Virus record (IMG/VR): IMGVR_UViG_3300032167_000002
Location: 152,286-216,285 of that record
Length of the DNA stretch: 64,000 nucleotides
Origin: a virus
Lineage: Duplodnaviria > Heunggongvirae > Uroviricota > Caudoviricetes
Direction: 5' to 3' (one strand)
Shown here: in pieces, positions 1 to 53,891 of the stretch
How positions within the stretch are numbered: position 1 is the first letter of the stretch
Layout: the number at the start of each line of letters is the position of its first letter
Notes under the pieces: model-generated
The model's input: only the letters and a program-made list of their open reading frames with translations
Told to the model about the DNA's origin: nothing
The model's database searches: none
Translations under genes and position numbers: made by a program

Positions 1-270
1 TGACTAGCTTACGCATCGCACCGGAGACTGCACGAGAACTGATAAACAGACCTTCAGCAATATCTCTTGCCTTCCACATAGGTGTTTCCTGATGCTCCTG
101 GAGGAACTTCAGAATTAACTTACCATTATCGGTAAACAAAGGTTTTTCGCCATTTTCGTCCAGTCCACAGAACGCAGACCAATAAAGACTTGCATCTTCA
201 TTCGGCTGAATATTCGGAGCCGCGACAATCAACTCATTTACATACTTAATAAATTCTTGCTTTTTACTCA
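1..270 (-). CDS. Hypothetical winged-helix-like protein, 3'-truncated at the window edge (start ATG at 270)
   Basis: Open frame MSKKQEFIKYVNELIV...GLFISSRAVSGAMRKLV runs off position 1. It is preceded by the stereotyped promoter at 311-344. It is absent from the ORF track because it is partial. Confidence 0.45.
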
Positions 271-312
271 TTTTTACAGATAACTCACTTTCTTTTTTAT
301 TTACCTTGTATA

Positions 313-344
313 TATATTATAACAAATTTAATTTAAAAAATCAA
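313..344 (-). promoter_or_regulatory. Stereotyped sigma-70 promoter for the leftmost partial gene
   Basis: + strand tatatattataacaaatttaatttaaaaaatcaa. Confidence 0.55.
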
Positions 345-838
345 CTAATTCTGTCATATTGCCAGAACTGATAAGTTAAGTCGTTATATGTTAGTAGCTG
401 TCCGCACGCAGCAGGCGCCCACTCTTCCGATTCATCTAGATTCGGAAAATAAGTATCAACATTATCGTGGTCTTTATAAATTTTTGTCACATAAACACGG
501 TCACAAACAGAAAGGAATTCTTGGTATATTGAGCCACCGCCAATAATAAACCATTCTTCATCATCATCAGACAAAGAAACTCGTACTTTAGCTTCATCCA
601 TTGGAATGCTAAAAGTCATGTTTCCAAGAGGACCTCTTGGCTATCTGGAGATAACAATATTTAGTCTATCTTTAAGTGGCTTTTGGGGTAATGAATCCCA
701 GGTTTTTCTTCCCATCACTACAACATGGCCAGTAGTGAGTGCCTTGAAATACTTCAAATCTTCTGGAATATGTTCCAATAGGTCTCCATTATAACCAATT
801 CCCCAATTATTATCAACAGCAACAATTGCAGAAATCAT
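341..838 (-). CDS. folA: Dihydrofolate reductase with a single in-frame TAG at 641-643
   Basis: Track ORFs 641..838 (MISAIVAVDNNWGIGYNGDLLEHIP...NIVISR) and 341..619 (...FIIGGGSIYQEFL...) are in the same frame (both codon tops congruent to 1 mod 3). They are separated only by TAG (+ strand cta at 641-643). The TAG aligns with Q in E. coli DHFR NIILSSQPG. The true stop is TGA at 341. Confidence 0.8.
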
Positions 839-839
839 T

Positions 840-1745
840 TTAAATTCCCAACTCCAATTTCAATTGTGGCTTCATAGGTTCATAATTCTCCATAGTGAAG
901 TCATCAATTGTCATTTCAAAAAAGTTAGTTGCGTTTGGATTCAATACGAGCATTGGCTTGCGTTGCTTTTTCCATTCTTCGGGGTCTGACTGGAATTTCT
1001 CCCAATCAGCGTTAGATTTTTCATCAAAGCGACGAAGCATTTCATCAGCAGCCTCAAGATGACGGTCATAAATCTGCTCATTAGCAACAACGTGAGTAAA
1101 AACGCCGGGCTGATAACCAGTATGACGAGCAATCATCATTAGTAATGCAGCATATTGAATTTCATTAATTCCACCGGGGCCAGAAGCAGTAAGCATATCA
1201 CCACTACGCTGAACAAGCATCATATCCAGGTACTCGCCACGAACATTCCAAATAGTAAGGAACGCACATGGAGCTAAGCCAGGAGTCTCATGCAAGTCAG
1301 TTTCTTGCCATAGTGAAACAATCTTGCGGCGACCATATGGGTCATTTTTAATATCTTCAATCAAATTATTGATTAAATCATAGCGGTCTACGGTTGCACC
1401 ATATCGTTGTCCGATAGTGCCATCGCCAATATCCCATTCATCCCACCAGGTAACTCCACGCTCATGCATCTCTTTGATGTTATTGGTTGGATGCTGATAA
1501 ATCGTGAAAATTTCTCTAATACCAGTTTTCCAAGCCTGGGGTCTTAGAGTGCAAATGGGGAAATTACCTCTACTCAAATCATAAGTTCTAAAAGTATGAT
1601 TTACAGAGTAGGTGTGTGCGGGAGTGCCGTCCGCATAATGAGGGCGGGGATTTTCATCCTTATATCCGTATTCTTTGATTTCCTTAATCATTGAATACAT
1701 ATACTGGTCAGCATTAGAAATAATTTTCATATTCTCAATCCTCAT
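840..1745 (-). CDS. thyA: Thymidylate synthase family protein (ThyA or dNMP hydroxymethylase-like)
   Basis: TS-fold motifs LAPCAFLTIWNV and LDMMLVQRSGDMLTASGPG. TAA stop at 840. Adjacent to DHFR. Confidence 0.8.
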   Translation of the reverse strand: MRIENMKIISNADQYMYSMIKEIKEYGYKDENPRPHYADGTPAHTYSVNHTFRTYDLSRGNFPICTLRPQAWKTGIREIFTIYQHPTNNIKEMHERGVTWWDEWDIGDGTIGQRYGATVDRYDLINNLIEDIKNDPYGRRKIVSLWQETDLHETPGLAPCAFLTIWNVRGEYLDMMLVQRSGDMLTASGPGGINEIQYAALLMMIARHTGYQPGVFTHVVANEQIYDRHLEAADEMLRRFDEKSNADWEKFQSDPEEWKKQRKPMLVLNPNATNFFEMTIDDFTMENYEPMKPQLKLELGI

Positions 1746-2007
1746 TTGACAAACTATATCCAGTTAATTTACAATCAATGTAATTTTGAACAAAAACTTC
1801 CAGTTCATCAATCATTACATCACCTTCGTACTCGCCATTAAAGAGCTGACTATAACTGATAAATTCAATACCAGTAATGCCATATGCGTGAGCTTTTGCT
1901 CTCATGGCATGTGGATTCATACAGGCAATTGCGGAATTAGTTTCCTTTGCCAAAAGCATCAATCTACTTGTCTTGCCGGAACTACGGCTATCAATAATAC
2001 GATACAT
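1735..2007 (-). CDS. Hypothetical small protein with a P-loop-like SSGKTS motif
   Basis: 90-aa track ORF. TGA stop at 1735. Confidence 0.35.
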   Translation of the reverse strand: MYRIIDSRSSGKTSRLMLLAKETNSAIACMNPHAMRAKAHAYGITGIEFISYSQLFNGEYEGDVMIDELEVFVQNYIDCKLTGYSLSNED

Positions 2008-2020
2008 AAATTAACTCCTT

Positions 2021-3013
2021 TTATTTAATACTATATCCAAACTCTTTTGCTTTAAAATAATCTTGCCAGTAATCTTCTCTCTCGTCCAGTCTGGAACGGT
2101 CGCACTCTTCAACAACCTCGAAAGTGAAGTTCTCGGGTCCGGCCGCAATCATTGCAGGATATAATTTATTACGAGTGGGTGCGTCTGCACCTACACCTCG
2201 TTTAATATGCTATTTCCAGCGGTCTGCTAAATTGGCAGCCTAACCAACATAACATTTTCCAGAAGAGATTTCAGTAATTTTATAAATTCCAGTATGAACA
2301 CCAGAACCAATAACTCTACCAATCATATCTGTCGTTGGTTTTTCATAATAGCATTTCCAAATAACCTTATTTAAAGGTTCTTTATCACGCAAATAAGGTT
2401 CTACCTCACGCAGAAGCTCAATTTCGTGGAGGTCTGCGGCAGAAAGCTAAATGCGATAGTAGTCTTGTTGGTCTTTCATTTCTTCTGCTCTCTTGGCTGC
2501 GGCAACTGCGGCATCGTTTGTAGCACGCATAATAGCCACATTTCCTTCAAGAGCTTTATACTATTCCATCAAGCCAGCTACGGTTTCTTGATACTATACT
2601 TCAAAAGAAGCGACATTCTTTTGATATTTCTATGCTTCAAGCTCCAAAGAGCGAGCCAGATTTTCTTGAGCGACTTCCATTTTTGAACTATAAAATAAAT
2701 CTGCGGCTTCTTGAGCCTGCTTTTCCATAGCTGTAATACTACTATTTAATGTGTTAATCTATTCAATGGTTGAGTCCTTTTGGAGCAACAACCTACTATT
2801 TTCTTCTGTTAGTCGTTTAGTTTCAGCTTCAAGCCATATGCGGCCCTCTTCGGCTAAACGATTCTACTCCTAAATTCTTTCGTTCTCTTTGGCAGTCTGC
2901 GCATCCAACTCCAGCGCCGCGTGAATGCGGGGACGCAGAATGCGATATACAACATATCCCGTAATAAGGGACGACAAGATGAACGAAATTAGAAAAATAA
3001 GTAATTCCACCAT
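2021..3013 (-). CDS. Membrane-anchored coiled-coil protein with a C-terminal GIY-YIG nuclease domain; 9 in-frame TAG codons
   Basis: Manual translation of the minus strand gives one 331-codon frame from ATG (3013) to TAA (2021). N-terminal transmembrane helix MVELLIFLISFILSSLITGYVVY, then about 180 aa of coiled coil, then GIYKITEISSGKCYVG[TAG]AANLADRWK[TAG]HIKRG...YWQDYF. TAGs at + strand cta 2210-12, 2240-42, 2447-49, 2561-63, 2594-96, 2630-32, 2759-61, 2864-66, 2870-72. The first aligns with Q or S of the YIG(Q/S) motif. No standard-code ORF of 60 aa or more exists here. Confidence 0.7.
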
Positions 3014-3026
3014 ATGGAAGAAAAAT

Positions 3027-3054
3027 GGGGTAAGATATTTAATATCTTACCCCT
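3027..3054 (-). terminator. Rho-independent terminator for the 3070..3345 transcript
   Basis: Minus-strand GGGGTAAGATATT/AAATATCTTACCCC perfect hairpin followed by ATTTTTCTT. Confidence 0.65.
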
Positions 3055-3069
3055 TAGTATATGTCAAAA

Positions 3070-3345
3070 TTACTCAGCAGCTTCTTCAGTTGCGTCAGGG
3101 TCGAAGCTCATGCCTGCAGGAGTCAGAGACAGGAACTTAACCTGCTTGTGAGTACCATCCTCTAGCTCGATTTCAGCGGGAGTACGAACACCCAAGCCCT
3201 TACGCTGAATAGCGGAAGTAAAGATGCCATCAACAGAGCGCTTCTCTAGACCCAGAGCAGCAGCAACGTCAGCAGCAGTTACGTTCTCGCCGTTAATCTC
3301 CTTCAAATAATTCAGAACCTTCTTGGAATTTTCCTTCATAGCCAT
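3070..3345 (-). CDS. Hypothetical small protein, possibly DNA-binding
   Basis: 91-aa track ORF MAMKENSKKVLNYLKEING.... TAA stop. Confidence 0.35.
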   Translation of the reverse strand: MAMKENSKKVLNYLKEINGENVTAADVAAALGLEKRSVDGIFTSAIQRKGLGVRTPAEIELEDGTHKQVKFLSLTPAGMSFDPDATEEAAE

Positions 3346-3454
3346 AGTAAATAATCTCCTTCTTAATAAATAATATTTTTTTAGTTTATATTTTCTAACC
3401 TCTCGGTTATGTAAATATTATATCAAAAAATTTTTGAAAAGTCAAGAATTTTTT

Positions 3455-3646
3455 TTAATTTTTCTCAAGCAGTTCCATCACAAGCTCGTCAATAGCGACC
3501 ATATCTTCCAGTCTATCGACGGAACTTGAGAGACGCATAATTTCTTCTTCTGCTTGATGAACGGCTTTCTTATCATCGCTCGTTTGAATGATTCGTTCGC
3601 ACTTAGCGATTTTTACAGCCAGATTCTTGAGTTCTTTTTTCTTCAT
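3455..3646 (-). CDS. Hypothetical small coiled-coil protein
   Basis: 63-aa track ORF with its own promoter at 3676-3707. Confidence 0.3.
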   Translation of the reverse strand: MKKKELKNLAVKIAKCERIIQTSDDKKAVHQAEEEIMRLSSSVDRLEDMVAIDELVMELLEKN

Positions 3647-3707
3647 TGAAAATTTTCATCCTTAATCTTTACGATTTTATTATACAAAATTTTTTTCTTT
3701 TTGTCAA

Positions 3708-5699
3708 TTACTCGATTCCAAAAGTCTGAATGAAGTCAGATTCTGACAAGATTGGAATCCCCAATGACTTGGCAGTCATGTTCTTAGAGGAAGTGGAATT
3801 CACATCATTGTTAATGAGGAAATTTGTGTTCTTAGAAACAGAACCAGTTACCTTTCCTCCAAGAGCCTCAATTCGTGCCTTGATTTCATCACGGTTCTTG
3901 AAATGAGTGAGTTTTCCAGTAATTACAAAAGTTTTTCCAGTTAAACTCTCGCCGACCGGGGCGGGAGCGACTTCAGGTGCATTAAAGTGAATATAATGGT
4001 CAGCAAGTAGTTTTGCTTCGGCATAATTAAAGCTAACTAAACTATTATGCATTTCACCACCGAAATTAGGAAGAGTGTAGAAAGCGAAACCACCTTCCGC
4101 TGCCTCGACAAACTTTTCCCAAGTTTCAAAGTGCTTTGCCAATTCTTTCGATGCCGTTGAGCCAATCAACGGAATACCGAGGGCCGCAATGAACTGATGT
4201 AGTTCACAATTTGCGCCAGTATTAATAGCGTTCAGAACCTTCTCGACGGATTTGGCTCCAAATCCAGGCTTCTGGACCCATTCACTTCTACGAATGGAAA
4301 GTTCAAAAATGTCAGTAAAATCATTGACCCAACCCCAATCAATCAGTTTCTCTAAAGTTGCCTTTGAGATACCCTTCATATCAAGACCTTTCTTACCGCA
4401 GAAGTGGTCCAGACGATTGATTAGTTTACCAGGACAAGTTGGAGAGACACAGGTCAGATTCATAGAGTCATTCAACTTACTATACTTGACCTCACCGCCG
4501 CACACAGGACAACAATTGGGGCGTTCAAACCAAGGATAATCATACTGAGGTAAATCCTCGGGTTCTTCCGCAGACGCAATCTGAGGAATAATCATATTAG
4601 CCTTAAAGACGTCCACCTTTTGGCCTTTATAACCCCAACCATGTAAAGTTTCATTTAGAATACTTACATTGTGTAAGCTAGCTCTTTCTACGGTCGAACC
4701 ATCTACGTCGATTGGTTCAAAGACAGCAACGGGAGTAAGGACACCGGTTCTACCCATCGTCCATTCAATATCCAACAAGCTAGTCTGGTAAGTTTCATCA
4801 TAGAATTTATATGCCAGAGCATTTTTGAAATGATGCGTTGTTTCTCCAAGAGAACGACCATAAGCACAATCATTAAACTTAATAACTACACCATCAATTG
4901 GATAACTATATCCTTGAGCCATTTGAGTCACTTGCTCAATAAACATATCCATTTCAACCTCAGTATCATCTGCGTAATAAGCAGGACCAGTCGCATATGG
5001 AACTATAGTAAATCCAAAAGGTACAAGATAATTAAGTTTTTGGCTAAGTTTGTACTCGGTACCATCATCAAACATCATTGGAGTGAGAACATCCCACGCA
5101 ACAAATGTAAGATTGCGGCTTGCACATTCTTTGGAGTCTAAAAGACGAATACTGCCTGCGGCGAAATTTCTAGGGTTCTTATATTCTGAACTGAATTTTT
5201 CAAAATCAGTATAGGTGCAAATGATTTCTCCATCAATAACCAATTCATCCATATAAGGAATTTTACTTGGAATTGAAGGAAGAACTCTTGCATTATGCAG
5301 GATATCTTCACCGACAAGACCATTTCCCCTAGTCTCCGCAGAAACTAATTCTCCGTTGCGGTAAGTAAGAGAACAAGTTAAACCGTCCATCTTACACATA
5401 GCCAAGAAGTCCTTTTTACCTACAAAAGCAGAAACTTCATCAACGGATTTAGTTTTTTCAAGAGATAACATCTTATGAGAATGTTCAACTTTTTTCAAAG
5501 CATTTACAACTTCATAAGAAATAGATTGAGTAGGAGAATTAGATAAAATCAAACCTGTTTCTTTTTCTAATTCTTGTAACTCAAAATATTTATTATCCCA
5601 TTCTTCGTCCGTAATTTTTGGATTACCTTCATCGTATGCTTTTGTACATTCGTTAAGGTATCTTACAAGAAACTTGATTTTATCATAGATACTATCCAT
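3708..5699 (-). CDS. ligA: NAD+-dependent DNA ligase
   Basis: 663 aa. KMDG adenylation motif (AMCKMDGLTCSLTYRNG), Zn-finger cysteines CCPVCGG...C, C-terminal BRCT (GKTFVITGKL). SD AAGGAG before the ATG. Confidence 0.9.
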   Translation of the reverse strand: MDSIYDKIKFLVRYLNECTKAYDEGNPKITDEEWDNKYFELQELEKETGLILSNSPTQSISYEVVNALKKVEHSHKMLSLEKTKSVDEVSAFVGKKDFLAMCKMDGLTCSLTYRNGELVSAETRGNGLVGEDILHNARVLPSIPSKIPYMDELVIDGEIICTYTDFEKFSSEYKNPRNFAAGSIRLLDSKECASRNLTFVAWDVLTPMMFDDGTEYKLSQKLNYLVPFGFTIVPYATGPAYYADDTEVEMDMFIEQVTQMAQGYSYPIDGVVIKFNDCAYGRSLGETTHHFKNALAYKFYDETYQTSLLDIEWTMGRTGVLTPVAVFEPIDVDGSTVERASLHNVSILNETLHGWGYKGQKVDVFKANMIIPQIASAEEPEDLPQYDYPWFERPNCCPVCGGEVKYSKLNDSMNLTCVSPTCPGKLINRLDHFCGKKGLDMKGISKATLEKLIDWGWVNDFTDIFELSIRRSEWVQKPGFGAKSVEKVLNAINTGANCELHQFIAALGIPLIGSTASKELAKHFETWEKFVEAAEGGFAFYTLPNFGGEMHNSLVSFNYAEAKLLADHYIHFNAPEVAPAPVGESLTGKTFVITGKLTHFKNRDEIKARIEALGGKVTGSVSKNTNFLINNDVNSTSSKNMTAKSLGIPILSESDFIQTFGIE

Positions 5700-5721
5700 T
5701 TCTATTCTCCTTAATTACATA

Positions 5722-5753
5722 TATATTATAGAAAAAATTTTTTATTTTGTCAA
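5722..5753 (-). promoter_or_regulatory. Stereotyped promoter variant (-35 TTGACA) for ligA
   Basis: + strand acatatatattatagaaaaaattttttattttgtcaa. Confidence 0.55.
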
Positions 5754-6025
5754 CTCCAGAAATCACTGAAGTCAAATATATTGACATAAAAATCTGGAAC
5801 ATCTTCTACTAATTGGACTCTATAACCATATACAAACATAGGTTCATCAAAAAACATAATTTTATCATTTGGATTTATATTAATTCGATGTAAAATTTGA
5901 GCAAAAGTAAAATCGTTCATTCTGATTTCAATACCATTTTGTTCGCCAAACCACTCATAGAGTCGGGACATTTCTCGTCCCGACTCAACGATAGGCATAC
6001 TTGGTCTGAAATAAATCGTTCTCAT
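5750..6025 (-). CDS. Hypothetical protein
   Basis: 91-aa track ORF. Its ATG overlaps the TGA of the gyrA-like gene (ATGA). Confidence 0.35.
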   Translation of the reverse strand: MRTIYFRPSMPIVESGREMSRLYEWFGEQNGIEIRMNDFTFAQILHRININPNDKIMFFDEPMFVYGYRVQLVEDVPDFYVNIFDFSDFWS

Positions 6026-8397
6026 ACCTTACTTACAGATAGAACTTTACTATTCTTGATAACAACATTGCCAATAGAAGCTCTACCAAGGTTTGGAATT
6101 TCGGATGCTTCGATACAAATACTGCTCTTATCACCCAAAATCAATACACAATCACTATCTTCAACAAGGGTTGCCGCAACCACTTTACCAGTAGTATCAG
6201 TAGGCTTATAACACATCAGACCCTTACCTGCTCTCTTCTGGAGAGGAAGTTCGTCAAGACCAAACTTCTTACAGTATCCACCATTAACGAAGATTGCCAA
6301 TTTATCATTTGTATTACGGACAGGAATTGCGGCGACAATTTCATCATCGGCACCCAAGTTAATACCCTTTACACCAGAAGTGGCACGAGAAGTAGGACTT
6401 ACTTCCTTAGAATCAAATCTAATTGCCATACCATTCTTAGTTACCAGGATTAACTGTTCGTCCTTAACCAAAGATACTGCGGCAAGCTCATCACCATCTT
6501 TAATGGTAATTGCTGCAATGCCAGTCTTTTTCTTAGTCTTAACATATTCTTCAAGACTTGTTTTCTTAACTAATCCATTTTTAGTTACGAACAATACATA
6601 TGCAGCATCAGTATCTCTATAAATAGAATACATTACAGCAGGCTGTTCATCCATATCCATATTGATTAGGGACTTGATAGACTGACCCTTACTTACATTG
6701 GTTCCTACTGGAACATCATTGACAAGTAGACGATACATCTTGCCCTTATCAGAGAAAATCATCAAAGAGTCAATCGTATTAGTACGAATTACTGCATGAG
6801 TAATATCATCTTGAGTTTTTACACCCTTACCATTTCGCTTCTGGGTACGGAAGCTAGTTGCAGGAATTCTCTTAACGAGACCACCCTCAGTCATAATAAC
6901 AACACACTTCTCTGGCTCGACGAATTCGATTTCCTTCTCTTCCTTAGTGGAAGCAACCTGAGTTATAGTGCTTCTGCGAGCGTCGCCATAAGTCTTTTTA
7001 AGTTCTGTAAAACCCTTAACTAACTCTGGCGTTGGATTTTGCAGAATTCCCTGTAGTCTCTCTAACTCAGATATAAGCTCAGCTCTTTCATTTTCAATCT
7101 CAACTTTCTCTAATTTTGCCAACTTAGAAAGCTTCATATCAAGAATCGCCTTAGCCTGGGCTTCAGAGAAACCATACTGGTTCATAAGAACAACCTTAGC
7201 AGCTGCCGCAGACTCGCTCTTCTTAATAAGAGCAATGATATTGTCAATATCTTCAAGAGCCTTCAACAGACCTTCCAAGATATGAATACGAGCCGCAACT
7301 TTATTAGCTTCATATTTAGTTTTTCTCAACAGAACATCTTTCTGGTGAGCAATATAAATTTCCAAAAGTTGCTTAATATTCAAAAGCTGAGGTTTCTTCT
7401 CAACCAGAGCAACCTGATTGAAACTATAAGTATCCTCTAAGCGAGTTAATTTAAACAACTTTGCGATAATAGGTTCAGCAGAAATTCCCTTTGCTAATTC
7501 AATAACGAAACGCACACCATCTTTGTTACTTTCGTCTCGGATGGTAGTAATTCCTTCCAATTTACCTTCCTCACAAAGCTTATCAATTTCCTTTACAAGG
7601 TCTTCTTTAGATACCTTATAAGGAATGGAAGTAAAGACGATACTATCGCCACGTTTATCAGATTCAATTTTGTACTCTCCTCTGATTCTTGCTCTGCCCT
7701 TACCTGTTAGATAAGCTGCGGGTAATTCGTCTTTGTTAATAATTAATCCGCCAGTTGGGAAATCAGGTCCGGAAATGTAATTCAAAATTTCCTTAATATC
7801 ACAATTAGGGTTTTGAGTTACATGGATTGCCGCATCCATAACTTCATTTAAATTGTGAGGTGCGAAGCTACAAGCCATCGCAACTGCGATACCAGAAGTA
7901 CCATTCACAATCAAATTGGGAATACGACCAGGCAGATAGACTGGCTCTTCTTCCACATCGGTATATGCTAATTGCCAATCGACAGTATCTTTCTTAATAT
8001 CAGCAAGCATTTCTTCGCCTGCTTTAGATAGTTTACATTCAGTATAACGATAAGCTGCAGCCTCGTATCCATCACGTGAACCATTATTACCATGGAAAGA
8101 GATAAGAGGGTATCTCATATTCCAAGGTTGACTCAACCACACTAACGCACCATAAATAGAAGCATCGCCGTGAGGATGGAAACGACCCATCGTATCACCG
8201 ACTGGTTGAGCACATTTTACAAACTTTTTATTATTATGATAACCCTTATCGAACATATCCCAAAGAATACGACGAGCAACAGGTTTCAAACCATCTTCCG
8301 CTGAAGGGATGGCTCTATCGGTAATAACACTCAAACTATAATCAAGGAAACTTTGCTCAACTTCCCCGATAATCGGAGTCTGAATTATATCTCCCAT
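6022..8397 (-). CDS. Type II topoisomerase A subunit (GyrA/ParC-like)
   Basis: 791 aa. N-terminal DRAIPSAEDGLKPVARRILWDMF (GyrA-type motif). Strong SD AAGGAGG. Confidence 0.85.
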   Translation of the reverse strand: MGDIIQTPIIGEVEQSFLDYSLSVITDRAIPSAEDGLKPVARRILWDMFDKGYHNNKKFVKCAQPVGDTMGRFHPHGDASIYGALVWLSQPWNMRYPLISFHGNNGSRDGYEAAAYRYTECKLSKAGEEMLADIKKDTVDWQLAYTDVEEEPVYLPGRIPNLIVNGTSGIAVAMACSFAPHNLNEVMDAAIHVTQNPNCDIKEILNYISGPDFPTGGLIINKDELPAAYLTGKGRARIRGEYKIESDKRGDSIVFTSIPYKVSKEDLVKEIDKLCEEGKLEGITTIRDESNKDGVRFVIELAKGISAEPIIAKLFKLTRLEDTYSFNQVALVEKKPQLLNIKQLLEIYIAHQKDVLLRKTKYEANKVAARIHILEGLLKALEDIDNIIALIKKSESAAAAKVVLMNQYGFSEAQAKAILDMKLSKLAKLEKVEIENERAELISELERLQGILQNPTPELVKGFTELKKTYGDARRSTITQVASTKEEKEIEFVEPEKCVVIMTEGGLVKRIPATSFRTQKRNGKGVKTQDDITHAVIRTNTIDSLMIFSDKGKMYRLLVNDVPVGTNVSKGQSIKSLINMDMDEQPAVMYSIYRDTDAAYVLFVTKNGLVKKTSLEEYVKTKKKTGIAAITIKDGDELAAVSLVKDEQLILVTKNGMAIRFDSKEVSPTSRATSGVKGINLGADDEIVAAIPVRNTNDKLAIFVNGGYCKKFGLDELPLQKRAGKGLMCYKPTDTTGKVVAATLVEDSDCVLILGDKSSICIEASEIPNLGRASIGNVVIKNSKVLSVSKV

Positions 8398-8791
8398 AAG
8401 GAACCTCCTTTATCTCTACAAAATCTTTCAAAAAATTTTCTTCTGTCCAATTCGATTTCATTGTATTACTAATAACTTCCTCAACTAAATCAAAAATACT
8501 ACACTTATCTTCTGGTGTCATATATGAATATTGAGTAGGAAGTTCTCGTAACCTCTCAAGCATATAAGGTGGAATAGCTAAGGCACGAACTGCAGTATGT
8601 GCGGCTTCTGCTACGCCTTCTGGAATCCGCACATATTTTCGTTCCAAATCTTCTTTCCATAACTTATCTATTGGAGGTTTAATACATTGCATTTTTTCTG
8701 AATACTTAGTTATATGTGGCATATGCTTCTTCCTCAGAAATATAACCAGTAGCAAGCTGGTCAGCAAGTTCATTCCATTCATGTCCAGCAT
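8357..8791 (-). CDS. Hypothetical protein; true start probably internal (MPHITKYSEK near 8722)
   Basis: The track ORF overlaps the 3' end of rnh by 85 nt. An SD-like GGAAGAAG lies before the internal ATG. Confidence 0.3.
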   Translation of the reverse strand: MLDMNGMNLLTSLLLVIFLRKKHMPHITKYSEKMQCIKPPIDKLWKEDLERKYVRIPEGVAEAAHTAVRALAIPPYMLERLRELPTQYSYMTPEDKCSIFDLVEEVISNTMKSNWTEENFLKDFVEIKEVPYGRYNSDSDYRGS

Positions 8792-9182
8792 GACCTTTGA
8801 TTTTTCTCAAATCAATACGAAAACCTTGCTTATACCAATCATAATAGGCTTGAATTAAATCAAGATTTTCGGGAACTTTTTTATCACTTTTAACCCAACC
8901 ATTTCTTGCCCAATTAAACATCCATTCATTGAAAGTATTTACACAATATGCGGAGTCGCTATATACAATCGGAGGCTGGCCCCAATCATCGCATTTTTCT
9001 CCATAATTAAGCATAACATATAGAATAGCTTTCAATTCTTCTCTATTATTGGTAGTTCCATTTGTTCTCTTGGCACGGACGAACTGAACACAATCATTTT
9101 CGTCAACGCCAACAATGCCGTAACCACCACTTGCGTTCACTTTTCCGTTCCCAACGCAGGAACCATCAGTATAGAAAATCAT
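8706..9182 (-). CDS. rnhA: Ribonuclease HI
   Basis: 158 aa. MIFYTDGSCVGNGK...GGYGIV... and ...KIKGHAGHEWNELADQLA, typical of RNase H. Confidence 0.8.
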   Translation of the reverse strand: MIFYTDGSCVGNGKVNASGGYGIVGVDENDCVQFVRAKRTNGTTNNREELKAILYVMLNYGEKCDDWGQPPIVYSDSAYCVNTFNEWMFNWARNGWVKSDKKVPENLDLIQAYYDWYKQGFRIDLRKIKGHAGHEWNELADQLATGYISEEEAYATYN

Positions 9183-9570
9183 TCGGGTTTCCTTTCAATA
9201 GTTCTTCAAACATTTTATCTACATCAATTGTTGATAAAATATCAACTGTATCACTAATTTTTTCAGTTTCGCCTCGTAGAACTGTAATACCCTTCAAAAT
9301 GTGGTCATTACATAAAATTACTGTATTATTTGGAAAAGTTTCATTCATTTCTTTTTGAATTGTTTGACACTCTCTCAAACTTAAATTATCAGCAATTTTA
9401 AGTAAAATTACATCATTTGGTTGAATATTTACAACCTGGAAAGGATAACCAGTATACTTACCGATTACCCCACCAAAAATAGATGCTTTATTTGTATCAG
9501 CATAAGTATATTGTCTACGATTCTCCATAGAGATTACATTAGTAGCGTTGGTCATAAATATAACCTCCAT
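9166..9570 (-). CDS. Hypothetical protein
   Basis: 134-aa track ORF. Confidence 0.3.
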   Translation of the reverse strand: MEVIFMTNATNVISMENRRQYTYADTNKASIFGGVIGKYTGYPFQVVNIQPNDVILLKIADNLSLRECQTIQKEMNETFPNNTVILCNDHILKGITVLRGETEKISDTVDILSTIDVDKMFEELLKGNPNDFLY

Positions 9571-9775
9571 CTAAAAACATATTACTTGTTCCTGTTAGTT
9601 CACGCTTAAATACAGTCACATCTTTAATTGCATATTCAGGCATTAAAACTATATTAGGAGTATTTAATAGGCTAATTAGCTTTTCACTAATCGCCTTATA
9701 TTCATCAATATCAACATCATCACCAATGGTGAATAAAATTGTATCACCAGGAGCAACTTTAATTACATTCGCCAT
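9539..9775 (-). CDS. Hypothetical protein
   Basis: 78-aa track ORF. Confidence 0.3.
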   Translation of the reverse strand: MANVIKVAPGDTILFTIGDDVDIDEYKAISEKLISLLNTPNIVLMPEYAIKDVTVFKRELTGTSNMFLDGGYIYDQRY

Positions 9776-10019
9776 AATAAAATTCCTCCATATCTTTCAA
9801 CATTTCATTGAATTTTTTACTTTCATCGGGATGTGCGGCTTTATATAAATTGACACTAGCCTCTGTCTTAAATGGGCCAATAACACTTTGAGGGCAATTT
9901 AATAGACAATATTCATCCATTAAATCTTGAGCTTGGATGATTTTATCATCGCCCAAATCCCAAAACCAATATCCATGATACTCAGACATCGATATTTGCC
10001 CTCCAAGCGTTATCTTCAA
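9759..10019 (-). CDS. Hypothetical protein
   Basis: 86-aa track ORF. TAA stop at 9759-61. Confidence 0.3.
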   Translation of the reverse strand: MKITLGGQISMSEYHGYWFWDLGDDKIIQAQDLMDEYCLLNCPQSVIGPFKTEASVNLYKAAHPDESKKFNEMLKDMEEFYYGECN

Positions 10020-47630: not shown

Positions 47631-48821
47631 TTAAGTGCCGTGTCGATGATGATGACATTCAGTACAAAGCATTACTCCATTTGCAAGCTCAGTAGTGCCA
47701 CCTTGACGCCAAGACTGAATATGATGAGCATGCATATCAGCCATAGCAAATGACTGCCCGCAATCGGGACAAATACCGTTTTGTCTATTGTAGAGTAATT
47801 TACGCTGACTATCAGTAAATTTACGATGTGTCAGTAACTGCTCATTTTTAGTAATACAATACTCAACGATAGCAGCTTTCGTACAGGTCAATTCCTTAGC
47901 AAGCTTAGCGCTGAATAATTCCTTGAGTAGATCAGCAATTTCGCTGGGATCTAACTCCTCATCTTTGTACTTGTTATATAGCCAGCCCCATTCAACAGTT
48001 TTAAAGCCGTCATCATAATATTCAAAATTGGCTTTAGTCCATGCAACTACTTCATTGAAATAATTCCACAAATCAGAAGCATCTGCATCATTCATATGCT
48101 GTTCCATGTACGCGCAAATTGCTTCATCACTCTTATCATTGACTCGCCAATAGATTACTTGCTCCAAAAGCTCTTGTCGGTTTGCATCTTTTTTACTGTA
48201 TTTCTTAAACAAAACCTCTGCAGGGCAGGAACCATTTTTACTTGCTCGACTAAAATATCTCTTAGCGTCTGTTAGCCACACGCTAGTGTGATTGGCATTG
48301 CGGATTTCTTGTGCAGACAATTGTGCACCAGCGATATTGATACGATTAAACCAATCTAACCGCTCTCTCTTGGTGCCTTTGCACAGATAAACCTCAATTT
48401 CATAATCAAGCAATGCTTCAGCTAAATCTGGATCATACTGTTCAAGGATGTCAAAATATGTTTCTTTGCCATTTCTCAACCAGTTTGCTTTAAAACTGGT
48501 CTGAGTTGTATCACCAGAAATAAAATCACACAAACTGATAGTTCTTTGCTGACCATCGAGACAATCATAAGTACCATCTTCGTTATCTACCCAATACATA
48601 ATGCTGAGAGGGAGATTTGCCAATGCAGTATCAATTACTGCATTGGCCTGTTCACGGTTATATACGAAAGAACGCTGGAATTCTGGACGGACACACAATT
48701 TACCGCCATAGGCATAAACGCCACGCTCTTCATTGGTATCGGAATTATTTACATAGCCGGCGCACAAATCACGCACTTTAACAAAAATGCGTTCAGTTTT
48801 CATATTATTCCGCTGAAACAT
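47631..48821 (-). CDS. DUF262 (ParB-like DGQQR) plus HNH nuclease fusion (GmrSD-like)
   Basis: N-terminal ...YDCLDGQQRTISL.... C-terminal HNH CPDCG...HAHHI...CTECHHHRH. Confidence 0.65.
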   Translation of the reverse strand: MFQRNNMKTERIFVKVRDLCAGYVNNSDTNEERGVYAYGGKLCVRPEFQRSFVYNREQANAVIDTALANLPLSIMYWVDNEDGTYDCLDGQQRTISLCDFISGDTTQTSFKANWLRNGKETYFDILEQYDPDLAEALLDYEIEVYLCKGTKRERLDWFNRINIAGAQLSAQEIRNANHTSVWLTDAKRYFSRASKNGSCPAEVLFKKYSKKDANRQELLEQVIYWRVNDKSDEAICAYMEQHMNDADASDLWNYFNEVVAWTKANFEYYDDGFKTVEWGWLYNKYKDEELDPSEIADLLKELFSAKLAKELTCTKAAIVEYCITKNEQLLTHRKFTDSQRKLLYNRQNGICPDCGQSFAMADMHAHHIQSWRQGGTTELANGVMLCTECHHHRHGT

Positions 48822-48835
48822 ATGTAGATCTCCTT

Positions 48836-50059
48836 TTAAGACTTTTTATGTCGGATCAAGATTCTAAAATATTTAGTCTGCCCATCAACAGTAGGACCGT
48901 TCCAAGTTTTAGTTTTACCAGTCTTACTATCTTGATAAGTGGTAGGAGTACCACAGATTAAACCATGCTCATAATCTGGATGAGCATATCCATTGAAACC
49001 TCCAACCAGTTCAAACTGATCAGGATTATATTTATCAATAAAGGAAATAGGAACACCCATTTCTCCATCGTAATTCATTGGAATATCTACAACACGATCC
49101 ACATTAATCGCGTCATAATTATCGTATTTAGGATGAATGGCGGGATCATAAGTTTTAGTAAGGATCAATTCTTCCTCTCTCTTAGAGGTGGGTAGATTGG
49201 TAAACCAACCAATATTACCGAAAGATTTAATAGATCCATCGGGTTGGATAAACTTATGAACTGCATTGTAGCCAGGCCAAATTTCATTTCGCCAAATACG
49301 GGTAAAAATTTCCTTATAGGTATAAGCATTTTTACTGCCAATAATAAGGAACTGCTTGTTGTGAGTGAGAATTGTATCAATGAATTCTCTAAACATAGAG
49401 AAAGGAGGATTGGTGCAAACAATATCGCACTCTTCCAAAATAGCAATGCACTCAGGACTGCGGAAATCACCATTTCCAGTCAAATCCTCTTGCAAAGCAT
49501 CGCTATCATCAATGGCGCCGTCGCCAGTGGTATCAGCATCAATCCAAATCTTATATGCCTTGCCATTCTCATCATAATGAGTGGCAATTAGTTTCTTTAG
49601 ACCAAAAGCATCAAACCGGTTAACAAAGAAAGACCAGAATTCGCTCTTTTTCTCAGCTGGATCATCACAAGGTAGATATACAACCTTATTATAGAAATAC
49701 TTACGATATTTCATAACCTCAGCTTCGATATCTTCATAGCGAGTATAAAATTCATCATTTTTTACTCTTTTTGCGGTACGTAGATTGGAATTATCGCATC
49801 CTTTGGAATTCTCTTCTTCCTCAAGGATTTTCATCAAATCCAAGAAATCATCTACGACTTCATAGCGCACCGGAGAGCCTCCCAGTCGGTTGAGGTATCC
49901 ATGATTTACAACGCCAGTTAATGTGGCAGGAGCAATTTTTACTCCGCAGGCATCACTCAACTCTTTTGCAGAAAAAGAAGTGAGTAAACAGTGCTGTTTA
50001 ATGTGTGTTAGTGCAGACCGTCCATTTTCAGTAAGTCCCATAATTAAACATCCTTTCAA
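48836..50059 (-). CDS. N6-adenine methyltransferase-like protein (NPPF motif)
   Basis: VCTNPPFS catalytic motif IV. 407 aa. Adjacent to the DUF262-HNH gene. Confidence 0.55.
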   Translation of the reverse strand: MKGCLIMGLTENGRSALTHIKQHCLLTSFSAKELSDACGVKIAPATLTGVVNHGYLNRLGGSPVRYEVVDDFLDLMKILEEEENSKGCDNSNLRTAKRVKNDEFYTRYEDIEAEVMKYRKYFYNKVVYLPCDDPAEKKSEFWSFFVNRFDAFGLKKLIATHYDENGKAYKIWIDADTTGDGAIDDSDALQEDLTGNGDFRSPECIAILEECDIVCTNPPFSMFREFIDTILTHNKQFLIIGSKNAYTYKEIFTRIWRNEIWPGYNAVHKFIQPDGSIKSFGNIGWFTNLPTSKREEELILTKTYDPAIHPKYDNYDAINVDRVVDIPMNYDGEMGVPISFIDKYNPDQFELVGGFNGYAHPDYEHGLICGTPTTYQDSKTGKTKTWNGPTVDGQTKYFRILIRHKKS

Positions 50060-53741: not shown

Positions 53742-53816
53742 TGGCGGGGGGCCTGGGATTCGAACCCAGCCACAACGGTTTTAGAGACCGCCGCGCTACC
53801 GCTACGCTAACCCCCA
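53742..53816 (-). tRNA. Amber suppressor tRNA, anticodon CTA, tRNA-Gln-like (U1.C72 open pair, G2-C71, G3-C70, G10, G73)
   Basis: TGGGGGT TA GCGT AGCGGTA GCGC G GCGGT CTCTAAA ACCGT TGTGG CTGGG TTCGAAT CCCAG GCCCCCC G CCA. + strand tag at 53782-84 inside tttagag. The acceptor end resembles tRNA-Gln(CTG) at 59382..59457. Confidence 0.8.
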
Positions 53817-53891
53817 TGGCACCGGCGCTCTGACTCGAACAGAGATATGCGGGGTTAGAGCCCGCCGTCCTAGCCATTGAACGACACCGGA
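53817..53891 (-). tRNA. Second suppressor tRNA, anticodon CTA, with Trp-like D and T arms (G73, U1.U72)
   Basis: TCCGGTG TC GTTC AATGGCTA GGAC G GCGGG CTCTAAC CCCGC ATAT CTCTG TTCGAGT CAGAG CGCCGGT G CCA. + strand tag at 53856-58. Abuts the first suppressor with no spacer. Confidence 0.7.

What the first reader, a model, noticed from the sequence alone, without database searches (positions are those of the whole stretch)
2021..3013. Unusual architecture: membrane anchor, long coiled coil and a GIY-YIG nuclease domain, with the densest TAG usage in the window
Free-standing GIY-YIG homing endonucleases normally carry DNA-binding domains, not an N-terminal transmembrane helix followed by a 180-residue coiled coil. 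This protein may be a membrane-tethered nuclease, for example for host DNA degradation at the membrane, for superinfection exclusion, or as an effector. Its nine TAG codons in 331 codons, against none in neighbouring housekeeping genes, suggest that its translation depends strictly on suppressor tRNA supply and is therefore a temporally gated, late function.
Basis: partly seen in the sequence, partly recalled or inferred. Interest (0 to 1): 0.55.

Follow-up and report, generated by a model that had tools for sequence, protein, structure and literature searches.

The report
Membrane-tethered phage nuclease gated by recoded stops
A large gut phage encodes a DNA-cutting enzyme on a long helical stalk anchored in the cell membrane, and its many in-frame stop codons mean it can only be made once the phage's suppressor tRNAs are active; the design resembles the bacterial SNIPE defence nuclease but arose independently.

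Summary
Window 2021-3013 (minus strand) is one 330-codon gene with nine in-frame TAGs, read as Gln, and a TAA stop. It encodes an N-out/C-in transmembrane helix, one continuous ~160-residue helical stalk, a conserved two-helix adaptor, and a C-terminal I-TevI-type GIY-YIG nuclease with an intact catalytic set and no DNA-binding domain.

It is not a mobile homing endonuclease. It is a core gene of a large clade of 130-200 kb gut phages, always in the gyrase/ligase replication module and almost always paired with a small HTH protein.

Three features appear to restrain its expression:
- TAG share is above the local background in 70 of 70 TAG-containing loci.
- A covarying terminator hairpin ends 7-21 nt before the ATG in 50 of 50 distinct upstream regions.
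- 49 of 50 upstream regions lack a Shine-Dalgarno motif.

In a TGA-recoded subclade the same gene carries in-frame TGAs while its neighbours do not.

The closest functional analogue is SNIPE, a membrane-bound nuclease that cuts injecting phage DNA. BLASTP, Pfam and hhalign find no homology to it. The function is inferred, not shown: superinfection exclusion is most likely, with host-DNA degradation or phage DNA processing as alternatives. "Late" timing is unproven.

The parts
2021..3013 (-). Complete gene: 330 codons plus TAA, with nine in-frame TAG (=Gln) codons whose first bases are at 2872, 2866, 2761, 2632, 2596, 2563, 2449, 2242 and 2212
   Evidence: TAG=Gln follows from invariant Gln columns in 67 orthologues: column 258 has 17 TAG + 50 Q, column 268 has 10 + 56, column 317 has 6 + 60.
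2945..3007 (-). Transmembrane helix (residues ~3-23), N-terminus outside, rest of the protein cytoplasmic
   Evidence: Hydropathy 2.19. A hydrophobic segment is conserved in all full-length relatives. Positive-inside rule: 0.09 K+R before the TM against 3.4 K+R in the 15 residues after it, and a median of 3 residues precede the TM.
2456..2944 (-). Cytoplasmic helical stalk (residues 24-186), a probable coiled coil about 24 nm long if straight. Sequence varies but length is conserved.
   Evidence: AF2 single helix 2-186, pLDDT 85-98. Heptad periodicity. TM-to-GIY spacing median 222 residues, IQR 213-226.
2294..2455 (-). Conserved adaptor (residues 187-240): two helices (192-202, 212-234) packed on the nuclease. 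No Pfam match; it is not DUF4041.
   Evidence: AF2 pLDDT 95-98. High conservation. Pfam negative in 38 members. hhalign against SNIPE negative.
2024..2293 (-). I-TevI-type GIY-YIG nuclease domain (residues 241-330). Catalytic set: Y244, Y255, R265, H269, E313.
   Evidence: These residues are invariant or nearly invariant across 68 diverse family members.
3017..3053 (-). Intrinsic-terminator-like hairpin (12-bp stem at 3053-3027, then a T-run) ending 13 nt before the ATG. No Shine-Dalgarno motif lies between it and the start codon.
   Evidence: Conserved in 50 of 50 distinct upstream regions, and 49 of 50 lack an SD. All 10 predicted pairs show compensatory changes. The arrangement is unique among the window's genes.
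3070..3345 (-). wH91: 91-aa acidic helix-turn-helix protein and near-obligate neighbour of the nuclease. It has its own near-consensus sigma-70 promoter at 3445-3417.
   Evidence: Adjacent in 83 of 85 nuclease-seeded loci and 76 of 79 wH91-seeded loci. In Phass-1 it is still adjacent but on the other side. HTH similarity to ComA, E 0.003, and weak Z-alpha similarity. Promoter.
3455..3646 (-). s63: 63-aa conserved small protein upstream of wH91, with a perfect sigma-70 consensus promoter at 3707-3679
   Evidence: Present in 78 of 85 loci. Promoter. No family match.
1735..2007 (-). s90: 90-aa protein immediately downstream, often overlapping or abutting the nuclease stop. It has an invariant Walker-A Lys (GxGKT) and Walker-B Asp (IDELE).
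   Evidence: Present in 53 of 85 loci, at distances of -3 to +16 nt in most. Alignment invariants. phrog_1828, unknown function. No PDB relative.
53742..53891 (-). Two adjacent, different tRNA(CUA) amber-suppressor genes within a 24-tRNA array. They are required to read the nine TAGs.

Best explanation
SHOWN FROM SEQUENCE AND COMPARISON. This is one gene, read with TAG as Gln, for a single-pass membrane protein with its N-terminus outside. The cytoplasmic part consists of:
- a rigid helical stalk of about 160 residues, probably a coiled-coil oligomer;
- a conserved two-helix adaptor;
- a C-terminal I-TevI-type GIY-YIG nuclease with a complete active site and no DNA-binding domain.

It is a vertically inherited core gene of a large clade of 130-200 kb gut phages, probably of Clostridia. 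It sits in the gyrase/ligase replication module and is paired with a small HTH protein (wH91). The gene carries three conserved features that should throttle its expression: in-frame recoded stop codons (TAG here, TGA in a sister subclade), a terminator hairpin just before the start codon, and no Shine-Dalgarno motif.

INFERRED MECHANISM.
- The I-TevI catalytic domain, which has little sequence specificity, has exchanged its DNA-binding tether for a membrane tether.
- Anchoring keeps a potentially lethal nuclease away from the bulk of the phage's own replicating DNA. It restricts cutting to DNA that comes to the membrane.
- With nine TAGs, full-length yield scales roughly as (suppression efficiency)^9. 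Essentially no enzyme is therefore made until the phage's tRNA(CUA) genes are expressed and effective, which is after the phage's own 200-kb genome has entered.
- The most likely substrate is DNA injected by later-arriving phages. That would be superinfection exclusion by the same spatial self/non-self logic shown for SNIPE.
- wH91, and possibly s90, would act as regulator, inhibitor or DNA-targeting partner.

CONFIDENCE. About 0.9 for the anatomy and the expression-restraint features. About 0.4 for the specific function. The confidence value given is for the whole statement, function included.
For: One gene and TAG=Gln. Suppressor tRNAs.

Architecture. Nuclease identity and catalytic residues.

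Family size: 717 clusters at 50% identity with E<=1e-30, nearly all 300-360 aa and matching end to end; 271 IMG/VR loci.

Core-gene synteny and wH91 pairing.

TAG enrichment: 47% against 4.8% in the window, and above the local background in 70 of 70 loci. Convergent TGA enrichment in the TGA-recoded subclade: L155 has 5 TGA and 2 TGG against 0 and 12 in its neighbours, and five further loci have TGA at codon 3.

Conserved covarying hairpin and absent SD.

Precedent that membrane tethering of a nuclease of the GIY-YIG superfamily provides self/non-self discrimination, that the untethered form is toxic, and that it cuts injecting phage DNA: SNIPE, PMC13190303. The founding SNIPE gene itself sits in a lambdoid prophage.

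Precedent that recoded stops mark genes expressed after a code switch: Borges et al. preprint 10.1101/2021.08.26.457843. TAGs occur in TerL, portal, TMP and tail fibre of the related phAss-1: PMC10607447.
Against: - There is no sequence or profile homology to SNIPE. DUF4041, the module that binds DNA and tape-measure proteins in SNIPE, is absent. The adaptor region here is not basic (net charge -3).
- Classical superinfection-exclusion genes are expressed early (own knowledge: T4 imm/sp), whereas the features here suggest delayed or very low expression.
- The gene's invariant home is the replication and nucleotide-metabolism module, which fits a role in DNA metabolism at least as well.
- A stalk of about 24 nm places the nuclease well away from the membrane surface.
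- Timing is not measured. The holin and lysin in the window have no TAG, while RecJ and DnaB homologues in a relative do. TAG content is therefore not a clean late-gene marker in this lineage.
- About nine relatives in non-recoded phages have no TAG. Phass-1 has a normal SD and a promoter-like site in place of the hairpin. No single restraint is essential to function.
- Many of the 70 loci are related, so the 70 of 70 figure overstates the number of independent observations.
Confidence: 0.4

Rival explanations
1. Host-chromosome degradation and nucleotide salvage. The nuclease cuts host DNA, like T4 endonuclease II (DenA), itself a GIY-YIG enzyme. This would feed the adjacent dTMP-synthesis genes. 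Tethering or partner proteins would spare phage DNA.
For: The gene lies next to thymidylate synthase and DHFR in the window and in many relatives. In Phass-1 it lies next to class III RNR and ThyX. The nuclease domain is of the low-specificity I-TevI type. That T4 denA is GIY-YIG and sits beside nrd genes is own knowledge, not tested here.
Against: ThyA and DHFR are present in only 16 of 85 loci, while the nuclease, wH91 and s63 persist, so the link to nucleotide genes is loose. Host-DNA degradation is normally an early function, whereas this gene looks throttled or delayed. A membrane anchor and a length-conserved stalk are not needed to attack a nucleoid. No basis for sparing phage DNA is visible.
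Confidence: 0.2
2. Phage DNA replication, recombination or maturation at the membrane. The protein anchors replicating or concatemeric phage DNA and nicks or resolves it. This would be analogous in architecture to phi29 p16.7 (TM + coiled coil + DNA-binding domain). wH91 would provide DNA binding.
For: The gene has an invariant position between gyrase/ligase/RNase H and other replication genes across relatives at 40-98% identity and in Phass-1. It is tightly paired with an HTH protein. Late resolution of branched DNA before packaging would fit delayed expression. The p16.7 and Slx1 analogies are own knowledge.
Against: No structure-specific or DNA-binding module was detected in the protein. 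The multiple brakes on expression contrast with its strongly expressed, SD-bearing, TAG-free replication neighbours. I-TevI-type domains are not known resolvases.
Confidence: 0.2
3. An ordinary free-standing homing endonuclease (Seg/I-TevI-like selfish element) with an odd N-terminal extension.
For: The catalytic domain scores best against group I intron/homing endonuclease models (TIGR01453, phrog_5123/314/7168, PADLOC HEase). All annotated phage hits other than Phass-1 are homing endonucleases.
Against: The protein ends at the catalytic domain and has no NUMOD, IENR1, HTH or zinc-finger DNA-binding module. Its position is fixed and its neighbours conserved in about 80 of 85 loci, and wH91-seeded loci contain it in 76 of 79. 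TM and stalk length are conserved. The full-length family has 717 clusters at 50% identity.
Confidence: 0.03
4. Artefact: two or more separate genes, or a decaying pseudogene, joined only by reading through TAG.
For: Under the standard code the frame has nine stops. GenBank annotates the Phass-1 orthologue as two fragments of 46 and 144 aa.
Against: There is no TAA or TGA in 330 codons. Two TAGs fall inside the GIY-YIG core at invariant Gln positions. TAG and CAA/CAG interchange between orthologues. The full-length architecture is conserved in hundreds of relatives, including non-recoded ones with no TAG. Suppressor tRNAs are present.
Confidence: 0.01

Closest known systems
SNIPE (PD-lambda-1; DUF4041 + T5orf172 membrane-bound nuclease; Saxton et al., Nature 2026, PMC13190303)
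   Same: Single N-terminal TM helix with the N-terminus outside, an elongated helical cytoplasmic region, and a C-terminal nuclease of the GIY-YIG superfamily. The N-terminal part is variable and the C-terminal part conserved. It is encoded on a phage genome: the E. coli SNIPE gene lies in a lambdoid prophage. Membrane tethering gives a plausible spatial form of self/non-self discrimination.
   Different: No detectable homology: BLASTP E 1.6; hhalign probability 33% over 20 coiled-coil columns. DUF4041 is absent. The nuclease is classical PF01541/I-TevI type, not T5orf172/MUG113. The protein is 330 aa against 500 aa. It is a core gene of the replication module in large phages of apparently lytic type, not a moron or defence-island gene. 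It has recoded stops, an upstream hairpin and no SD.
I-TevI catalytic domain (PDB 1MK0/1LN0) and Seg-type GIY-YIG homing endonucleases
   Same: Residues 240-329 align end to end with I-TevI residues 2-91 (E 5e-12, TM 0.80). Y6, Y17, R27, H31 and E75 are all matched.
   Different: There is no linker or DNA-binding domain. The catalytic domain is C-terminal rather than N-terminal. It carries an N-terminal TM, stalk and adaptor. It is not mobile, because its synteny is fixed. I-TevI N90 is Ser328 here.
Uzume (UzuA) single-gene defence system / phrog_26160
   Same: A protein of ~280-310 aa with the GIY-YIG domain at the C-terminal end. The PADLOC UzuA model matches residues 241-327, E 1.8e-8. phrog_26160 matches the same region.
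   Different: Only the nuclease core aligns (model positions 184-275 of 278); the N-terminal 180 positions do not. Uzume's mechanism is unknown. It is listed only as having GIY-YIG homology.
Stop-codon-recoded late genes of code-15 and code-4 phages (Borges et al., 10.1101/2021.08.26.457843; phAss-1, PMC10607447)
   Same: In-frame TAG read as Gln, with phage tRNA(CUA) genes. Recoded codons concentrate in particular genes while nearby replication genes stay in the standard code. Close relatives use TAG, TGA or no recoding.
   Different: Here the recoded gene is neither structural nor a lysis gene. It is an isolated island inside the replication module. The window's holin and lysin are TAG-free. 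The same gene is the recoded one under both TAG and TGA reassignment.
T4 endonuclease II (DenA) and phi29 p16.7 (comparisons from own knowledge, not tested here)
   Same: DenA is a phage GIY-YIG nuclease next to nucleotide-metabolism genes that attacks host DNA. p16.7 is a phage replication-module protein with an N-terminal TM, a coiled coil and a C-terminal DNA-interacting domain.
   Different: DenA is soluble and relies on phage DNA modification for self-protection. p16.7 has no nuclease domain.

Membership tests
GIY-YIG nuclease superfamily (PF01541, I-TevI type) | GIY and YIG motifs within a profile match above the curated threshold | tested here: met
   GIY at 242-244 and YVG at 255-257. 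Pfam 37.5 bits against 22.6; TIGR01453 67.2 against 56.
GIY-YIG nuclease superfamily (PF01541, I-TevI type) | Catalytic Arg, His and metal-binding Glu (I-TevI R27, H31, E75) | tested here: met
   R265, H269 and E313 align to R27, H31 and E75. R265 and E313 are invariant and H269 is at least 90% conserved in 68 diverse members.
GIY-YIG nuclease superfamily (PF01541, I-TevI type) | Conserved Asn (I-TevI N90) | tested here: inconclusive
   It aligns to Ser328 in this clade ('GYSIK'). Phass-1 and the TGA subclade have 'GFN/GYN'.
GIY-YIG nuclease superfamily (PF01541, I-TevI type) | Alpha/beta fold with a three-stranded sheet | tested here: met
   AF2 model pLDDT 95-98 for residues 242-325. Foldseek to 1MK0/1LN0: TM 0.78-0.81, rmsd 2.0-3.0 A.
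Free-standing homing endonuclease (I-TevI/Seg-like) | Separate DNA-binding domain (NUMOD, IENR1, HTH, zinc finger) tethered to the catalytic domain | tested here: not met
   No such Pfam, NCBIfam or PHROG match in this protein or in 38 relatives. The protein ends at the catalytic domain.
Free-standing homing endonuclease (I-TevI/Seg-like) | Sporadic, mobile distribution | tested here: not met
   Fixed position with the same neighbours in about 80 of 85 loci. wH91-seeded loci contain it in 76 of 79, and the one apparent absence was a TGA-recoded copy.
SNIPE (PD-lambda-1) | N-terminal TM anchor, N-terminus out, nuclease in the cytoplasm | tested here: met
   By prediction only: hydropathy, the positive-inside rule and AF2. 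Experimental topology is not testable here.
SNIPE (PD-lambda-1) | DUF4041 (PF13250) domain between anchor and nuclease | tested here: not met
   SNIPE itself scores 70 bits for DUF4041. None of 38 family members match at E<=1. hhalign between the two families is negative.
SNIPE (PD-lambda-1) | T5orf172/MUG113-type nuclease domain and overall sequence homology | tested here: not met
   PF01541 only; BLASTP E 1.6.
SNIPE (PD-lambda-1) | Cleaves phage DNA during injection; binds tape-measure protein or entry receptor | not testable with these tools
   Requires infection assays and proximity labelling, as in PMC13190303.
Uzume (UzuA) | Full-length match to the UzuA model | tested here: not met
   PDLC03973 matches only model positions 184-275 of 278, the nuclease core (E 1.8e-8).
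Genetic code 15 (TAG=Gln) phage gene | In-frame TAG at positions that are Gln in relatives, plus phage tRNA(CUA) | tested here: met
   The related Phass-1 is classified in the 'Caudoviricetes code 15 clade'.
Intrinsic (rho-independent) terminator | GC-rich stem-loop followed by a T-run, with conserved structure | tested here: met
   12-bp stem plus T-run. Present in 50 of 50 upstream regions. All 10 pairs have compensatory changes. Termination activity itself is not testable here.

The most novel reading that the evidence does not exclude
Large gut phages independently built a SNIPE-like membrane-tethered nuclease from a homing-endonuclease catalytic domain. They use stop-codon recoding as a gene-specific translational fuse for it. 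The same toxic gene, isolated among standard-code replication genes, has accumulated in-frame TAGs in TAG-recoded lineages and in-frame TGAs in TGA-recoded lineages. It is reinforced by a conserved terminator hairpin and an SD-less start. If so, the enzyme appears only after the code switch and then destroys DNA arriving at the membrane, which would be phage-versus-phage exclusion.
Probability: 0.35. Interest if true: 0.8.

Novelty: new variant of a known kind. Interest (0 to 1): 0.62.

Why it matters
- It would be a second, evolutionarily independent case of the 'tether the nuclease to the membrane' solution to self/non-self discrimination. This one is owned by large, apparently lytic phages, suggesting the SNIPE principle is general and is used in phage-phage competition.
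- It offers an unusually clean natural test of the hypothesis that stop-codon recoding times gene expression. A single heavily recoded gene sits among recoding-free neighbours, with the same pattern under two different reassignments and with non-recoded relatives as controls.
- It has a practical consequence. The gene is fragmented or missed by standard annotation: GenBank splits the Phass-1 orthologue into 46-aa and 144-aa hypothetical proteins. A family of more than 700 clusters at 50% identity is therefore effectively invisible in annotated phage records.

Tried and rejected
- Megablast of window 1-12000 against 50,697 phage records found no match.
- tblastn of the protein against the same records found only Phass-1 matching beyond the nuclease core.
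- DUF4041 and T5orf172 membership was tested by Pfam on 38 relatives, BLASTP against SNIPE and hhalign between the two families. All were negative.
- The PADLOC ZorA, DruC and LmuB hits, and the PDB hits to ATP synthase b, apolipoproteins and SMC, cover the stalk only. I treated them as coiled-coil composition, not homology.
- The first AF2 run, on a shallow alignment, gave a poor globular half (pLDDT 42-73). It was superseded by the run on the diverse alignment.
- The afdb50 fold library was unavailable.
- Rfam found nothing credible for the hairpin region.
- Neither suppressor tRNA could be assigned to Gln by similarity to the phage tRNA-Gln genes. The amino-acid identity of TAG rests on alignments.
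- s90 and wH91 have no confident family assignment.
- The hypotheses 'two genes or pseudogene' and 'mobile homing endonuclease' were considered and rejected, as set out under the rival explanations.
- I could not sample the structural module of this exact lineage to compare its TAG share with that of the nuclease.
Full report
OBSERVATION. The finding's coordinates delimit a real ORF on the minus strand. Its ATG is at 3013-3011 and its TAA at 2023-2021, with 330 sense codons. It contains exactly nine in-frame TAGs (codons 48, 50, 85, 128, 140, 151, 189, 258, 268) and no internal TAA or TGA. The window also holds a 24-gene tRNA array that includes two adjacent, different tRNA(CUA) genes at 53742-53891. 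Under a TAG-sense reading most minus-strand genes have no TAG at all. In this gene TAG is 9 of 19 Gln-type codons (47%), against 4.8% in the other minus-strand ORFs of 100 aa or more (Poisson p 3e-9). The only ORFs of similar TAG density overlap tRNA genes and are probably not genes.

TAG IS GLN AND THE ORF IS ONE GENE. More than 120 full-length homologues of 319-338 aa at 71-98% identity exist in public metagenomes, on contigs up to 203 kb. The DNA of a 75%-identical orthologue has 12 in-frame TAGs, partly at different positions. TAG and CAA/CAG interchange between orthologues. In an alignment of 67 distinct orthologues read from DNA, invariant Gln columns are filled only by Q or TAG. Column 258 (YVGQ) has 17 TAG and 50 Q, column 268 (RWKQH) has 10 and 56, and column 317 has 6 and 60. 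Two of the window's TAGs lie inside the nuclease core, so the domain is intact only if TAG is read.

ARCHITECTURE.
- Residues 3-23 are strongly hydrophobic. A comparable segment is present in every full-length relative.
- Across 67 relatives a median of 3 residues precede the TM, with 0.09 K+R. The 15 residues after it carry 3.4 K+R. This indicates an N-out/C-in orientation.
- AlphaFold2 on a diverse 68-sequence alignment gives a confident model (mean pLDDT 92.9). It has one continuous helix over residues 2-186, two helices (192-202 and 212-234) packed on the catalytic domain, and an alpha/beta GIY-YIG core at 242-325.
- The stalk shows 3.5-residue hydrophobic periodicity; about 2% of shuffles reach the observed value.
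- The TM-to-GIY spacing is length-conserved (median 222 residues, IQR 213-226), although its sequence is the most variable part.
- The nuclease passes Pfam and TIGRFAM thresholds. It aligns end to end with the I-TevI catalytic domain (1MK0, E 5e-12), mapping Y244/Y255/R265/H269/E313 onto Y6/Y17/R27/H31/E75. It superposes at TM 0.80 and 2.0-2.4 A.
- Those residues are invariant or nearly so in members down to ~30% identity, which argues for an active enzyme.
- No DNA-binding module was found, and the protein ends with the catalytic domain.

DISTRIBUTION AND CONTEXT.
- An exhaustive profile search finds 717 clusters at 50% identity with E<=1e-30, nearly all 300-360 aa and matching end to end.
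- IMG/VR holds 271 loci, mostly on 100-200 kb contigs.
- The hits in 'bacterial genomes' are MAG-binned contigs of the same size and synteny. They are assigned to Clostridia, Acutalibacteraceae, Gemmiger, Mollicutes, Bacilli and Erysipelotrichaceae. This weakly suggests Bacillota hosts.
- The gene order is GyrB - RNase H - GyrA - (ligase) - s63 - wH91 - [nuclease] - s90 - (ThyA - DHFR). wH91 is present in 83 of 85 loci and s63 in 78 of 85, while ligase, ThyA and DHFR come and go.
- Seeding independently from wH91, 76 of 79 loci have the nuclease 40-70 nt downstream and two run off the contig. The single apparent absence was a TGA-recoded copy.
- Among 50,697 annotated phage records only Phass-1 matches beyond the nuclease core. 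Phass-1 is a 136-kb human gut phage in the NCBI 'code 15 clade', with Clostridia predicted as host (PMC10607447).
- In Phass-1 the true ORF (TM, a coiled coil with 8-9 TAGs, and the GIY-YIG) is annotated as two hypothetical proteins of 46 and 144 aa. It follows GyrB-GyrA. A wH91 homologue abuts it on the other side, and two tRNA-Sup(CTA) genes lie just downstream.
- The fixed position, the conserved partner and the conserved architecture rule out an ordinary mobile homing endonuclease.

EXPRESSION RESTRAINTS.
(i) Recoded stops. In all 70 distinct loci where the gene has any TAG, its TAG share exceeds that of other ORFs within +/-10 kb. In several lineages it is the only TAG-containing gene in 21 kb (for example L018, L019, L082, L088). 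Many loci are related, so this is not 70 independent events. The first TAG precedes the nuclease domain in 59 of 60 TAG-containing relatives (median codon 46). Without suppression only a short membrane peptide could be made.
(ii) Convergence. A subclade uses TGA as a sense codon. L155 has five in-frame TGAs against two TGG, while its co-directional neighbours have 0 TGA and 12 TGG (Fisher p 0.002). L152, L154, L159, L165 and L170 have TGA at codon 3, where TAG-clade orthologues have a TGG Trp. Their neighbours have essentially none.
(iii) Hairpin. A 12-bp GC-rich hairpin plus T-run (3053-3017, minus strand) ends 13 nt before the ATG. An equivalent hairpin ends 7-21 nt before the ATG in 50 of 50 distinct upstream regions. 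All ten predicted pairs show compensatory double changes.
(iv) No SD. 49 of those 50 regions lack an SD-like motif. By contrast 43 of 58 ORFs in the window have one, and no other gene has a strong hairpin that close to its start.

The upstream genes s63 and wH91 each have a near-perfect sigma-70 promoter. The phage also encodes its own sigma factor at 37241-38143. The nuclease may therefore depend on read-through or on a phage-specific promoter.

CAVEATS ON 'LATE'.
- The window's holin (12019-12423) and multidomain lysin (12928-15261) have no TAG.
- RecJ-like and DnaB-like genes of a relative have 8 and 3 TAGs.
- About nine relatives in apparently non-recoded phages have no TAG.
- Phass-1 has a promoter-like site and a good SD instead of the hairpin.
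- The literature reports recoded stops mainly in structural and lysis genes, with variable use in replication genes. TAGs occur in TerL, portal, TMP and tail fibre of phAss-1.
- Timing was not measured. Dependence on suppressor tRNA is a logical consequence of the sequence. 'Late' is an inference.

COMPARISON WITH KNOWN SYSTEMS. SNIPE (PD-lambda-1; PMC13190303) is an E. coli nuclease anchored in the inner membrane by an N-terminal TM helix, with its N-terminus in the periplasm. It has an elongated cytoplasmic region, DUF4041 and a C-terminal GIY-YIG-superfamily domain. It cleaves phage DNA during injection, and its TM-less form is toxic. I recovered the SNIPE gene through published primers. 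It lies in a lambdoid prophage, between ren/P and ybcN. It scores DUF4041 at residues 198-252 and T5orf172/MUG113 at 357-449.

Against the present family I found no homology. BLASTP gives E 1.6. No family member hits DUF4041 or T5orf172. hhalign of a 68-sequence profile against a 25-sequence SNIPE profile gives 33% probability over 20 coiled-coil columns. The two families therefore share a design, not ancestry.

PADLOC's UzuA (Uzume) model and phrog_26160 match only the nuclease core, and Uzume's mechanism is unknown. No paper in the searchable library describes this family.

MECHANISM. The best-supported reading is as follows. A low-specificity I-TevI-type nuclease has swapped its DNA-binding tether for a membrane tether on a length-conserved stalk. 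Tethering would spare cytoplasmic phage DNA, by the logic shown experimentally for SNIPE. Multiple recoded stops would make full-length yield a steep function of suppression efficiency, roughly its ninth power (my inference). The hairpin and the missing SD would keep basal expression minimal.

The target I consider most likely is DNA entering at the membrane from later-arriving phages. I put this at about 0.4. Two rivals stand at about 0.2 each:
- Host-DNA degradation for nucleotide salvage. The ThyA/DHFR/RNR neighbourhood is suggestive but inconsistent.
- Processing of the phage's own DNA at the membrane. The gene's invariant home in the replication module and its HTH partner favour this.

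wH91 is acidic (net charge -4 by residue count) and has a ComA/LuxR-like HTH. It could be a regulator, an inhibitor or a targeting subunit. s90 has an invariant Walker-A Lys and Walker-B Asp, but no known relative.

VERDICT. This is a new variant of a known kind, the membrane-tethered nuclease of the GIY-YIG superfamily. It is distinguished by its independent origin, its phage core-gene status and a convergent, gene-specific use of recoded stop codons.

Noticed in passing
window 30734-33250 (-): An 838-aa protein with Major Vault Protein shoulder (PF11978, E 2e-23) and vault repeat (PF17795) domains. A vault-protein-like gene in a phage genome, with no PHROG match.
   Followed up: no
window 47631-48821 (-): A 396-aa protein with a GmrSD_N (DUF262) domain and an HNH domain, which looks like a type IV restriction nuclease encoded by the phage. 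The next gene (48836-50041) has a weak DNA methyltransferase PHROG hit.
   Followed up: no
window 1735-2007 (-); alignment A8: s90, a 90-aa protein just downstream of the nuclease and often overlapping its stop. It has an invariant Walker-A Lys (GxGKT) and Walker-B Asp (IDELE), which makes it a possible miniature P-loop NTPase. It matches phrog_1828 (unknown function) and has no PDB relative.
   Followed up: partly
L098 5467-6447 (Phage Phass-1, OQ749652.1 63005-63985): GenBank annotates the Phass-1 orthologue as two separate hypothetical proteins (46 aa and 144 aa) with a 400-nt gap between them. Read with TAG as sense it is one ~326-aa TM + coiled-coil + GIY-YIG gene.
   Followed up: yes
L152, L154, L155, L159, L165, L170 (IMG/VR contigs): A subclade of related phages reads TGA as a sense codon, apparently Trp. 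The nuclease gene starts M-x-TGA in five of the six. No suppressor tRNA lies within the 8 kb fetched for L155.
   Followed up: partly
window 12019-12423 and 12928-15261 (-): The holin (phrog_13712) and a 777-aa lysin (M15 peptidase + tail lysozyme + amidase_2 + SH3) contain no TAG. This is unlike the usual picture of lysis genes being recoded in code-15 phages.
   Followed up: partly
window 53742-53891 (-): The two adjacent tRNA(CUA) genes differ greatly from each other (alignment score 12). Only the first shares the TGGGGG acceptor-stem start with the phage tRNA-Gln genes. They may be charged differently.
   Followed up: partly
L001 18924-20663 and 15538-17079: In a 75%-identity relative the RecJ-like gene has 8 in-frame TAGs and the DnaB-like helicase has 3, while gyrase, ligase and RNase H have none. 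Recoding within the replication module is gene-specific.
   Followed up: no
L099 2501-4003 (E. coli 118UI, NZ_CP032515.1): The founding SNIPE gene (WP_109866709, 'DUF4041 domain-containing protein') sits between lambdoid prophage genes (ren and replication protein P on one side; a P22AR-domain protein and ybcN on the other). It is found in 130 of 5,426 complete E. coli genomes.
   Followed up: partly
L056 5369-5842: In one lineage the wH91 partner gene is a tandem duplication of the HTH domain (158 aa).
   Followed up: no
window 33993-35411 and 37241-38143 (-): An RNA ligase with a PHA02142 OB-fold domain, and a phage-encoded RNA polymerase sigma factor (phrog_351, E 1.5e-83). The sigma factor implies non-sigma-70 promoters for part of the genome.
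   Followed up: no
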